Origin: the human T2T-CHM13v2.0 reference genome, Homo sapiens
Assembly: GCF_009914755.1 (NCBI RefSeq)
Contig: NC_060947.1
Reading direction: 5' to 3' (one strand)
DNA: 64,000 nt
Of the stretch, positions 44,273-47,409 are shown in pieces. Numbering within the stretch: position 1 is the stretch's first letter; every line of letters starts with the position of its first letter. The notes under the pieces are model-generated. The model ran no database searches. It was not told where the DNA came from and was given only the letters and a program-made list of their open reading frames with translations. A program made the translations under genes and the position numbers.

Positions 44273-44301
44273 TATATACTCCAAAGTATTTTTAACACAG
44301 A

Positions 44302-44583
44302 GGCTCACGCCTGTAATCCCTGCACTTTGGGAGGCCGAGGCAGGTGGATCACCTGAGGTCAGGAGTTCGAGACCAGCCTGGTGAGCACGGCGAAACCCCC
44401 ATCTCTACTAAGAATACAAAACTTAGCTGGGCGTTGTGGTACATGCCTGTAATGCCAGCTGCTCAGGAGGCTGAGGCCGGAGAATCACTTGAACCCGGGA
44501 GGCAGAGATTGCAGTGAGCAGAGTTCAAGCCACTGCACTCCAGCCTAGGTGACAGAGCGAGACTCCATCTCAAAAAAAAAAAA
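44302..44583 (+). mobile_element. AluS, slightly 5'-truncated
   Basis: Starts at ggctcacgcctgtaatcc; poly(A) tail. Confidence 0.93.
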
Positions 44584-44793
44584 GAGGTATTTTTGGATGA
44601 ATTGATGACATGTGTTTATCTATCCATCATTCATTCATTCATCCCTTTGGTTATTCAAGGCATTTCTCTTTGTTTGGTTATGAAACTAACGATAGGGTAT
44701 TGAATAACCTTTGAAGTCTCAGTGTTTGGATCTTTTTTCATGTTGTTTGCAGAATGATTCTTTGCAACCAAAAGCATATTCAGAAAGTAGAGA

Positions 44794-47206
44794 CAAGCAT
44801 ACCTCATTTCATTGTGCCTCAAAGATACTGGGATTTTTACAAATTGAAGATTTGTAGTAACCCTGCATTGAGTAAGTCTATTGGCTCCATTTTTCCAACA
44901 GCATGTGCTCACTTCATGTCTCTGTGTTACATTTTGGTAATTTTCACAATATTTCAAATTTTTTCATTATTACTATATCTGTTATGGTCATCTGTAATCA
45001 GTGATCATTGATGTTACTCTTGTAATTACTTGCGGGCACCATAAACTGCACCCAAATAAACTGGTGAACTTAATTGGTAGAAGTTGTGCGTGTTCAGACT
45101 GCTCCACTAACTAGCCATTCCTTCATCTCTCTCCCTCTCCTTGGGCCTCGCTATTTCCTGAGACACAACAATACTGAAATTAGGCCAGTAACTACCCTAC
45201 AATGGTCTCTAAGTGTTCAAGTGAAAGAAAGAGTCCCACATCTCTCACTTTAAATCAAAAGCTGGAAATGATTAAACTTAGTGAGGAAGGCACGTTAAAA
45301 GCCAAGATAGTCTGAAAACTAGGCCTCTTGGTAAAAGCTAGGCCTCTTGTGCCAAACAGTTTGTCAAGTTGTGATTGATCAGGAAGAGTTCTTGAAGGAA
45401 ATTAAAAGTGCCACTCTGGTGAACCCACAAATGATAAGAAAGCAAAACAGCCTTATTGCGGATATGGAGAACATTTTAGTGGTCTGGATAGATCAAAACA
45501 GCCACAAAATTCCCTTAAGCCAAAGCCTGATCCAGAGCAAGGCTCTAACTCTCTTCAATTCTGTAAAGGCTAAGAGTGCTGAGGAAGCTGCAGAACACAA
45601 GTTGGAAGCTAGCAGAGGTTGGTTCATGAGGTTTAAGGAAATAAGCTGTCTCCAGAACATAAAAGTTCAAAGTGAAACAGCAAGTACTGAGTTAAAAGCT
45701 ATAGCCAGTTATCCAGAAGACACAGGTAAGATCATTTATGAAGGTGGCTATGCCAAACAACAGATTTTCAATGTAGATTAATCAGACTTATATTGGAAGT
45801 AAATGCCATCTAGGGCTTTCATAGCTAGAGAGAAATCTATATTTGGCTTCAAAGCTTCAACGAACAGCATCACTCTCTCGTTAGGAGCTAATGTAGCTGA
45901 TGACTTTAAGTTGAAGCTAATGCTCATTTACCATTTCAAAACTCCTAGGGCCATTAAGAATTATGTTAAATCTACTCAGTCAGTAATCTATAAATGGAAC
46001 AACAAAACCTGGATTAAAGCACATCTGTTTATAGCATGATTTAGTGAATATTTTAAACCCACCATTGAGACCTACTGCTCAGAAAAATGATTCCTTTCAA
46101 AATATTGTTGCTCACTGATCTGGTCACCTGAGAGCTCTCATGGAGATCTACACAGAGCTCTACAAAGAGATCAATGTTGTTTTCATGCCTGCTAACACAA
46201 CATCCATTCTTCAGTTGACGGATCAAGGAATAATTTCAACTTTCAAGTCTTATCATTTAATAAATACATTTTGTAAGGCTATAGCTGCCATATTGATTCT
46301 GATGGATCTGGGAAAAGTAAAGTAAAAACCTTCTGGAACTGATCTACCACTCTAGATGTCATTAAGAACATTTGTAATTCAATGGAGGAGGTCAAAATTT
46401 CAACATTAACGGGAGTTTGGAAGAAGCTGATTCCAACCCTCATTAATCACTTTGGGGGCTCAAGACTTCAGTGGAGGAAGTCACTGCAGATGTGGTGGAA
46501 ACAGCAAGAGAACTAGAATTAGAGGAGGAGCAAGATGTGACTGGATTGCTACAATCTCATGATCAAACTTGAAGGAATGAGTAGCTGCTTCTTAAGGATT
46601 AGCAAAGAAAGTGGTTTCTTGAGATAGGATCTACTCCTGGTGAAGATGCTGTGAATAATCGTGTTGAAATGACAAGAAAACATTTAGAATATTACATAAA
46701 CTTAGTTGATAAAGCAACAGCAGAGTTTGAGAAGATGGACTCCAATTTTGAAAGAAGTTTTACTGTGGGTAAAATCCTCTCAAACAGCATCACATGCTAC
46801 AGAGAAATCTTTTGTGAAAGGAAGAGTCAATTGATGTGGCAAACTTCACTGTTGTCTTATTTTAAGAAAGTGCCACAGCCACCCCAACCTTTAGCAACGA
46901 CCACCCTGATTAGTCAGCAACCATGCACATCGAGGCAAGACCCTTCACCAGCAAAACAACGACAACTCATTGAAAGCTTAGATGATAGCCTCTTTTTTTT
47001 AGCAGTAAACTCTTTTTAAATTAAGGCATGTACATTTTTTAGTCATCATAATGTTATTTCACACTTAATAGAACATAGTATGTTGTAAATATAACTTCTA
47101 TATGCACTAGGAAACCAAAAAATTCATGTGACTCACTGTTTTGCAATATTCATGTTATTGTGGGGTGGTCTGGAACGAAACCCGCAGTATCTCTAAGATA
47201 TGCCTG
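44794..47206 (+). mobile_element. Full-length Tigger1 (pogo/TcMar) DNA transposon
   Basis: TIRs caagcatacctc / aagatatgcctg followed by TA; ~2.41 kb; internal transposase. Confidence 0.95.
45202..46900 (+). pseudogene. Disrupted Tigger1 transposase (CENP-B HTH + DDE, TIGD1-like)
   Basis: Translations [74 protein letters not shown]; several stops and frameshifts; end approximate. Confidence 0.88.
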
Positions 47207-47409
47207 TATTCAAAAGTATTTTCATATAAATGGATGATATGTATTCATGTATCCAGTCATTCACTCATCTTTTCAGTTATTCAAAGCATTTTGGTCATGA
47301 AACTAATTATAGAGTATTGGATAATCCTTGAAGTCACAGTATTTGGCTCTCTTTCATAATGTTTGTAGAATGATGCTTTGCAACCAAAAATGAATTCAGA
47401 AAATAGATA
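47207..47409 (+). repeat. Direct duplicate of the Tigger1 left flank (44277-44293 plus 44588-44793)
   Basis: About 80% identity over the ~118-bp core by manual alignment. Confidence 0.9.

What the first reader, a model, noticed from the sequence alone, without database searches (positions are those of the whole stretch)
44277..47409. Tigger1 flanked by a ~200-bp direct duplication instead of a TA target-site duplication
The sequence after the right TIR (47207-47409) repeats the sequence before the left TIR: 44676-44793 vs 47293-47409 is about 80% identical. Similarity extends left to tactccaaagtatttt vs tattcaaaagtatttt once the later AluS is removed. The duplicated unit begins at TA and ends at TA (GA in the left copy), each abutting a TIR. 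Established: TcMar elements duplicate only TA. Inference: the two transposon ends were joined to different TA sites ~200 bp apart, or two nearby insertions recombined, recording an aberrant transposition event. The divergence is compatible with Tigger1's age.
Basis: partly seen in the sequence, partly recalled or inferred. Interest (0 to 1): 0.75.

Follow-up and report, generated by a model that had tools for sequence, protein, structure and literature searches.

The report
Transposon-made 203-bp flanking duplication

Summary
A full-length pogo/Tigger-type transposon (44794-47206) is flanked by two copies of a 203-bp host unit: 47207-47409, and 44277-44793 without a later Alu. They are 81% identical. 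Each copy stops exactly at a transposon end and is bounded by TA (GA on the left). The unit is not a detectable dispersed repeat. Its divergence (K2P 0.23) matches that between this element and 11 relatives (0.23), and 0 of 54 other both-ended copies show such a repeat.

New here: (1) the right copy ends in TA-CA-TA, the Tc1-type excision footprint (0.9% of TAs in the window), suggesting the element once stood there; the alternatives are a 12-nt TIR stub or chance. (2) A likely L1-made retrocopy on contig C7 preserves the right junction at about 12% divergence, so the duplication predates it.

Best reading: hybrid-end insertion between sister chromatids (0.45). Transposase-dependent routes together reach about 0.85. 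No outgroup mammal could be searched, and the chimera test had no power. This is a new member of a known kind (P-element hybrid insertion, maize alternative transposition); I found no such case for a human DNA transposon in my paper searches.

The parts
44277..44293 (+). Left copy of the duplicated unit, first part; starts at TA (site a)
   Evidence: Aligns to 47207-47223; overlaps the target duplications of both Alus
44294..44583 (+). Alu inserted into the left copy after the duplication; target duplication 44283-44293 / 44584-44594 (9 of 11 alike)
   Evidence: absent from the right copy and from the C7 copy. The name Alu is by recognition, no repeat library
44595..44793 (+). Left copy of the unit, second part; ends at GA (decayed TA, site b) flush with the left TIR
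44794..47206 (+). Full-length pogo/Tigger-type DNA transposon, 2413 bp (Tigger1 by recalled length and ends), broken transposase
   Evidence: TIRs; 63 matches from 40 scored of 5784 candidates, the long ones 74-81% identical; 11.6% from the column majority of 29 copies
45335..45778 (+). Transposase remnant, Tc5/pogo-type DNA-binding domain
   Evidence: PF03221 E 8.7e-09
45803..46322 (+). Transposase remnants, DDE catalytic domain in two open stretches (45803-46036, 46119-46322)
   Evidence: PF03184 E 1.6e-10 and 2.7e-09; the other 2 of 5 stretches had no match
47207..47409 (+). Right copy of the duplicated unit, 203 bp, TA to TA, flush with the right TIR
47408..47413 (+). TA-CA-TA at the end of the right copy: candidate excision footprint
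   Evidence: Sequence; background 0.86% of 7675 TAs for the 2-nt type, 13.5% for any 0-3 nt type; Tc1 footprint in PMC12632400
47410..47421 (+). 12-mer between two TAs, 8 of 12 like the TIR start: alternative reading as a TIR stub
   Evidence: 49 of 7675 TAs reach 8 of 12; 25 of 564 among those followed by CA
46993..47284 (-). Source of a likely retrocopy at G000:C7:84244799-84245090 (element's 3' end plus first 78 bp of the right unit)
   Evidence: 255 of 289 aligned bases identical; this element is the best of 30 copies, score 274 against 220; 11-bp target duplication
43828..44271 (-). Second Alu with an expanded microsatellite tail, inserted at the start of the left unit; exact 16-bp target duplication 43812-43827 / 44272-44287
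   Evidence: (D20)

Best explanation
The element lies between two TA-bounded copies of a 203-bp host stretch, likely made by its own transposase pairing ends from two sister chromatids (hybrid element insertion). Inferred steps: the element first sat at TA site b. After replication the transposase cut the right end of one sister's copy and the left end of the other's, and inserted this hybrid pair into TA site a, 203 bp upstream of b. The chromatid that kept its element and gained a-to-b after the right end reads X-unit-element-unit-Y; the other lost the unit. The emptied second b site would be healed by end joining, leaving TA-CA-TA. If the target was a homologue without the element, no scar is expected and the CATA is native. 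Shown: boundaries, identity, age match, rarity, the CATA string. Inferred: the order of events, the chromatids involved, and that CATA is a scar. The structure has since decayed and shows no sign of function.
For: Both unit ends are flush with a TIR at TA/GA, and similarity stops there. Unit divergence is K2P 0.228 (0.217 without CpG), against 0.227 (0.215) for this element versus 11 copies and 0.224 among 10 of those copies. 0 of 54 other both-ended copies have a flush repeat (18, 36). Genome searches find only the two copies and the C7 derivative. The C7 copy is 11.4% from the right unit and 22.8% from the left and shares the right unit's 3-bp gap, so the duplication is older than that copy. 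TA-CA-TA is one of the two usual Tc1 footprints (PMC12632400, passages); a pogo-family element leaves 0-4 bp (PMC9976928, passages). Hybrid insertion from sister chromatids or homologues is described in PMC2775673 and PMC3744419 (passages).
Against: No outgroup was seen, so neither the single-copy ancestral state nor the absence of CATA is shown. Tigger's own footprint is unknown; my searches gave none. Any 0-3 nt footprint-like string follows 13.5% of TAs. An anchored test against 27 LINE-2-like tails put the best fit at 2 bases missing and the worst at 4 extra bases, which leans against a 4-base insertion, but the best score was no better than 23% of random sites. The age match is loose: the 95% interval of the raw difference is 13.8-24.6%. 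The chimera test found no linked subfamily columns among 392, so it had no power. A local hop plus crossover gives the same product.
Confidence: 0.45

Rival explanations
1. Local hop plus unequal crossover: the element jumped from site b to site a on one chromatid, leaving a footprint at b, and this allele later recombined inside the element with the original allele.
For: Predicts every observed feature, including TA-CA-TA and a non-chimeric element. Local hopping is a recurring term in the Sleeping Beauty listings (search listing only).
Against: Needs two rare events and both alleles in one cell. The sequence cannot separate it from hybrid insertion.
Confidence: 0.2
2. Giant target-site duplication: an element arriving from elsewhere joined its right end at site a on one strand and its left end at site b on the other, and repair synthesis copied the 203 bp between.
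For: The polarity fits a unit running from TA to TA, the age fits, and no earlier resident element is needed. Very long target duplications are reported for a LINE (PMC9977147, passages).
Against: Does not predict the CATA or TIR-like string at the second b site. A DDE transpososome normally attacks both strands 2 bp apart (established; PMC8151067 passages). The search listed no such case for a DNA transposon in human.
Confidence: 0.15
3. Transposase-independent template switch: replication or repair jumped back from the right flank TA to site a, copied the unit and the first 12 nt of the left TIR, then returned.
For: 47410-47421 matches the TIR start at 8 of 12 and lies between two TAs; 0.6% of TAs do this. 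Transposition-independent duplication at TIR elements is common in animals (PMC8277862, abstract and passages).
Against: Four changes in 12 nt is high for a family about 11% from its majority sequence. Given the CA, 4.4% of sites reach 8 of 12. An exact stop at the right TIR is unexplained without the transposase. Pack-TIR captures lie inside the element, not beside it.
Confidence: 0.08
4. A tandem duplication existed first and the element landed on its junction TA by chance.
For: Gives the same layout if the junction had TA microhomology; the age interval leaves room.
Against: The junction is 1 of about 36 TAs in two units, and the duplication must also be about as old as the element.
Confidence: 0.07
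5. Two independent Tigger insertions at sites a and b on different alleles recombined.
For: Gives the same layout; NAHR products are chimeric and resemble hybrid insertion (PMC2775673, passages).
Against: Needs two unrelated full-length insertions 203 bp apart in the same orientation. Divergence along the element shows no step: 8.9-14.1% per 400-nt bin. No scar is predicted.
Confidence: 0.05

Closest known systems
P-element hybrid element insertion in Drosophila (Gray 1996; Preston 1996)
   Same: One element left at the junction, with a flanking direct duplication or deletion whose breakpoints are the element end and a new target site. Described in PMC2775673 and PMC3744419 (passages). The 1996 papers were not held: titles seen in a reference list, content recalled.
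   Different: P superfamily with 8-bp targets, seen in crosses. Here a pogo/Tigger element with 2-bp TA targets in an old primate germline event, so the new-target signature is much weaker.
Ac/Ds alternative transposition in maize: tandem direct duplications (Zhang, Zuo, Peterson 2013, PMC3744419)
   Same: Direct duplications flush with transposon ends; three natural cases of 116-1262 bp found by comparing the flanks of hAT elements (section 10 read).
   Different: The reversed-ends route needs two nearby elements, and each repeat starts with an element copy. Here there is one element between the repeats and at most a footprint or stub after the second.
Tc1 and Sleeping Beauty excision footprints
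   Same: TA-CA-TA is one of the two usual Tc1 footprints (PMC12632400).
   Different: Sleeping Beauty leaves 3 nt (PMC8151067), Passer 0-4 bp (PMC9976928); Tigger's footprint was not found in print.
Pack-TIRs (Tan 2021, PMC8277862)
   Same: Local host DNA duplicated at TIR elements in animals, including a Tigger1 case in gibbon (passages).
   Different: The captured DNA lies between the TIRs and is mostly put there by gap filling; here the duplicate lies outside the TIRs.
Retro-DNAs (PMC11195612), for the C7 copy
   Same: DNA-transposon sequence moved with a long target duplication and an A-rich tail; 41 Tigger1 entries (passages).
   Different: The C7 copy keeps the TIR and 78 bp of flank, so its source locus is identifiable; that study excluded entries with TIRs. 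Its supplement could not be read.

Membership tests
pogo/Tigger DNA transposon | Transposase with Tc5/CENP-B-type HTH and DDE_1 domains | tested here: met
   PF03221 and PF03184 above curated cut-offs in 3 of 5 open stretches
pogo/Tigger DNA transposon | Short TIRs | tested here: met
   9 of 12 terminal bases inverted; same ends in other copies
pogo/Tigger DNA transposon | TA on both sides | tested here: met
   TA right, GA left; GA also in 3 of 36 other copies, TA in 22 of 36
Tigger1 by name | Best match to the Repbase/Dfam Tigger1 consensus | not testable with these tools
   No repeat library; the name rests on recalled length (about 2.4 kb) and ends
Hybrid element insertion product | Duplication breakpoints exactly at element ends and at a target-type site | tested here: met
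Hybrid element insertion product | Formed while the transposase was active | tested here: inconclusive
   Point estimates match (0.228 vs 0.227) but the interval is wide
Hybrid element insertion product | Element not chimeric | tested here: inconclusive
   No step in divergence; no subfamily markers to test with
Hybrid element insertion product | Single unit in the ancestral state | not testable with these tools
   No mammal relatives held
Hybrid element insertion product (sister target) | Excision scar at the vacated site | tested here: inconclusive
   TA-CA-TA present; LINE-2-like spacing test uninformative, leaning against
Reversed-ends transposition duplication | Second element or fragment in reversed orientation starting each repeat | tested here: not met
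   At most a 12-nt stub after the right unit
Dispersed repeat inserted twice | Other copies of the unit in the genome | tested here: not met
   Only the two copies and the C7 derivative; very old repeats may be missed, as the tool warns
L1-made retrocopy (C7 locus) | Long target duplication and A-tail on the sense strand | tested here: met
   Exact 11-bp duplication; T10 run against T8 at the source. The short run points to priming on an internal A-tract (inference)

The most novel reading that the evidence does not exclude
This is a complete fossil of sister-chromatid hybrid transposition by Tigger1 in the primate germline: duplication, resident element and excision footprint in one locus. 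It would show that Tigger cut 2 nt inside its ends like Tc1, and would be the first of a small, unrecognised class of TIR-flush duplications (and matching deletions) made by DNA transposons in mammalian genomes.
Probability: 0.3. Interest if true: 0.6.

Novelty: new member of a known kind. Interest (0 to 1): 0.42.

Why it matters
Human tandem duplications are usually put down to homologous recombination or replication errors. A TIR-flush, TA-bounded duplication as old as the transposon is evidence that extinct human DNA transposons also duplicated host DNA by alternative transposition, as shown in flies and maize. It defines a simple signature for a genome-wide screen. If the footprint holds, it gives a rare look at how an extinct transposase cut. 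The locus itself is intronic and shows no sign of function, and the event is rare (0 of 54 other copies), which limits its weight.

Tried and rejected
1. Unit as a dispersed repeat: 3 of 3 and 2 of 2 candidates were this locus or its C7 derivative.
2. The CA after the right unit as the end of an old LTR: a 16-mer of the left unit has 25 genome matches against 0 for the control, many in a shared repeat context. The units do not share that context: 14 upstream bases match at 0.22-0.24, against 0.39-0.54 in 19 of the 24 other loci. Not supported.
3. LINE-2-like tail as an internal outgroup across the junction: a 27-copy profile hit only 47430-47450 (E 0.03); the anchored test was uninformative.
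4. Chimera test: no linked columns among 392 in 29 copies; nearest neighbours per third were noise.
5. Screen: 69 other copies examined, 15 dropped because both ends were not found (11, 4). The highest unanchored flank repeats were L019 (313 bp, 95 and 375 nt from the ends; likely two Alus, not checked) and L064 (138 bp, 302 and 247 nt off; left end called inside the element). Twenty further copies from the list were planned; 10 were obtained and 10 were not.
6. Dating papers (Pace and Feschotte; Smit and Riggs) and the 1996 P-element papers were not held, so no age in years is given.

Full report
Observation. The window lies in an HS6ST2 intron (hub annotation). A 2413-bp element runs from 44794 to 47206; 9 of its 12 terminal bases are inverted, with GA on the left and TA on the right. 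Three of five open stretches match the Tc5-type HTH (PF03221) or DDE_1 (PF03184) families. A genome search scored 40 of 5784 candidates and gave long matches at 74-81%. It is a pogo/Tigger element; the name Tigger1 is recalled from length and ends, since no repeat library was available.

The duplication. The 203 bases after the right TIR (47207-47409) align to the left flank once a + strand Alu (44294-44583) is left out: 80.8% over 203 columns, score 216 against a maximum of 39 in 1000 shuffles. The unit starts at TA (44277 and 47207) and ends at GA/TA (44792 and 47408). Upstream, 9 of 30 bases match. Downstream, 8 of 12 match and then 4 of 30. A second Alu is inserted at the start of the left unit with an exact 16-bp target duplication. 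GA for TA is ordinary: 3 of 36 other copies.

Not a dispersed repeat. Searching the genome with the right unit gave 3 matches: itself, the left unit and a C7 locus. The left unit gave 2 matches. The tool warns that old or very common repeats can be missed. A 16-mer of the unit is common in an LTR-like context (25 matches, control 0), but the units lack that context.

Age. K2P between the units is 0.228 (0.217 without CpG). This element against 11 full-length copies averages 0.227 (0.215), and 45 pairs among 10 of those average 0.224. The interval for the units is wide, 13.8-24.6% raw. The duplication is therefore about as old as the family's activity, without proof of simultaneity.

Rarity. 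Of 69 other copies examined, 54 had both ends found (18 of 29, with flanks of 534-1400 nt; 36 of 40, with flanks of about 360-470 nt). None had a repeat flush with the ends, while this locus scored 212 under the treatment. The one-sided 95% upper bound is about 5% (computed 5.3% for n=55; 5.4% by hand for 54). The short flanks would miss duplications longer than about 400 bp, and the copies were chosen by similarity, not at random.

A dated witness. G000:C7:84244799-84245090 holds the last 214 bases of an element followed by the first 78 bases of the unit, 255 of 289 aligned bases identical to 46993-47284. Of 30 copies, this element is the best source (274 against 220). The insert has an exact 11-bp target duplication, a T10 run at one end (T8 at the source) and a 40-base extra piece at the other; a 29-mer of that piece occurs 540 times in the genome (control 0; recognised as L1 from memory). 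This fits L1-mediated copying of a - strand RNA, the HS6ST2 sense strand, primed on an internal A-tract (inference; compare retro-DNAs, PMC11195612, passages). The copy is 11.4% from the right unit and 22.8% from the left and shares the right unit's 3-bp gap. The right junction and the duplication are therefore older than the retrocopy. The copy ends before the second b site, so it says nothing about the footprint.

The end of the right unit. It reads TA-CA-TA (47408-47413). This is one of two usual Tc1 footprints (PMC12632400, passages). Sleeping Beauty leaves 3 nt (PMC8151067, passages) and the pogo-family Passer 0-4 bp (PMC9976928, passages). In this window 0.86% of 7675 TAs are followed by a 2-nt-type footprint and 13.5% by any 0-3 nt type. 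The same bases can be read as a 12-nt TIR stub between two TAs (8 of 12; 0.6% of TAs, 4.4% given CA). I tried a LINE-2-like tail as an internal outgroup. The profile hit only 47430-47450. The anchored test favoured 2 missing bases and disfavoured 4 extra ones, but its best score was matched by 23% of random sites. The scar is a lead, at roughly even odds.

Mechanism. Breakpoints flush with both TIRs at TA point to the transposase. In hybrid element insertion, ends from sister chromatids or homologues pair and insert at a new site (PMC2775673 and PMC3744419, passages). With the element at b, joining one sister's right end to site a yields X-unit-element-unit-Y. If the target was the other sister, the vacated b must be healed and should carry a footprint, as seen (my derivation). 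A local hop followed by crossover gives the same product. Uncoupled strand transfer on a naive target gives it without a scar. PMC2775673 separates hybrid insertion from ectopic recombination by chimerism; here divergence is even along the element (8.9-14.1% per bin) and no subfamily markers exist (0 linked of 392 columns), so that test failed for lack of power. Odds: hybrid insertion 0.45, hop plus crossover 0.2, giant target duplication 0.15, template switch 0.08, earlier tandem duplication 0.07, two independent insertions 0.05.

Relation to known work. Maize has three natural hAT-linked duplications of 116-1262 bp, each repeat starting with an element (PMC3744419, section 10). Pack-TIRs carry the duplicate inside the element (PMC8277862, abstract and passages). 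Five searches (listings and abstract starts, 11, 25 of 42, 20 of 23, 11 and 15 of 40 papers listed) showed no report of a flush flanking duplication at a human DNA transposon. The library lacks most subscription papers, and the retro-DNA supplement could not be read. PMC9219625 and PMC5753468 (passages) gave no age for the family in the passages shown.

Verdict. The feature is real, well beyond chance, and most likely made by the transposase. It is a new member of a known kind, in a host and family where I found no described case. It has no sign of function, and the decisive outgroup test is still open. Interest 0.42.

Noticed in passing
L003:1277-1630 (G000:C7:84244789-84245142): Likely L1-made retrocopy of intronic HS6ST2-strand RNA carrying this element's right TIR and 78 bp of flank, with an 11-bp target duplication and a 40-base high-copy piece in the opposite sense at its 5' end. 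The source locus is identifiable.
   Followed up: yes
window 43828-44583: Two Alus head to head about 22 bp apart, with arms 82% complementary over 225 nt (I1). Both inserted at the same A/T-rich site and their target duplications overlap. They would fold into a long hairpin in the HS6ST2 pre-mRNA; closely spaced inverted Alus are thought to be uncommon (recalled).
   Followed up: no
window 43828-43985: The tail of the - strand Alu has expanded into about 150 bp of TG/TA/CA microsatellite.
   Followed up: no
window 45311-45350 and 46130-46170: Private insertions of 19 and 12 nt inside the element that look like short tandem duplications, plus deletions of 6-7 nt near 44818, 46118 and 46296.
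   Followed up: partly
window 47404-47419: With four bases left out, the sequence around the end of the right unit is a perfect 12-bp palindrome; the four bases can also be read as a slippage duplication, a non-transposon source of the CATA (seen).
   Followed up: no
L008 (G000:C2:233034692-233037072): A full-length copy only 6.7% from the family majority, against 9-14% for the others: younger, or in a slowly mutating or constrained place.
   Followed up: no
L003:250-490: L1-like 3' end with an inverted junction near position 280, resembling a twin-primed insertion (recognised by eye).
   Followed up: no
L038, L040, L041: Three loci on C1 are near-identical over the motif region: a segmental duplication.
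   Followed up: no
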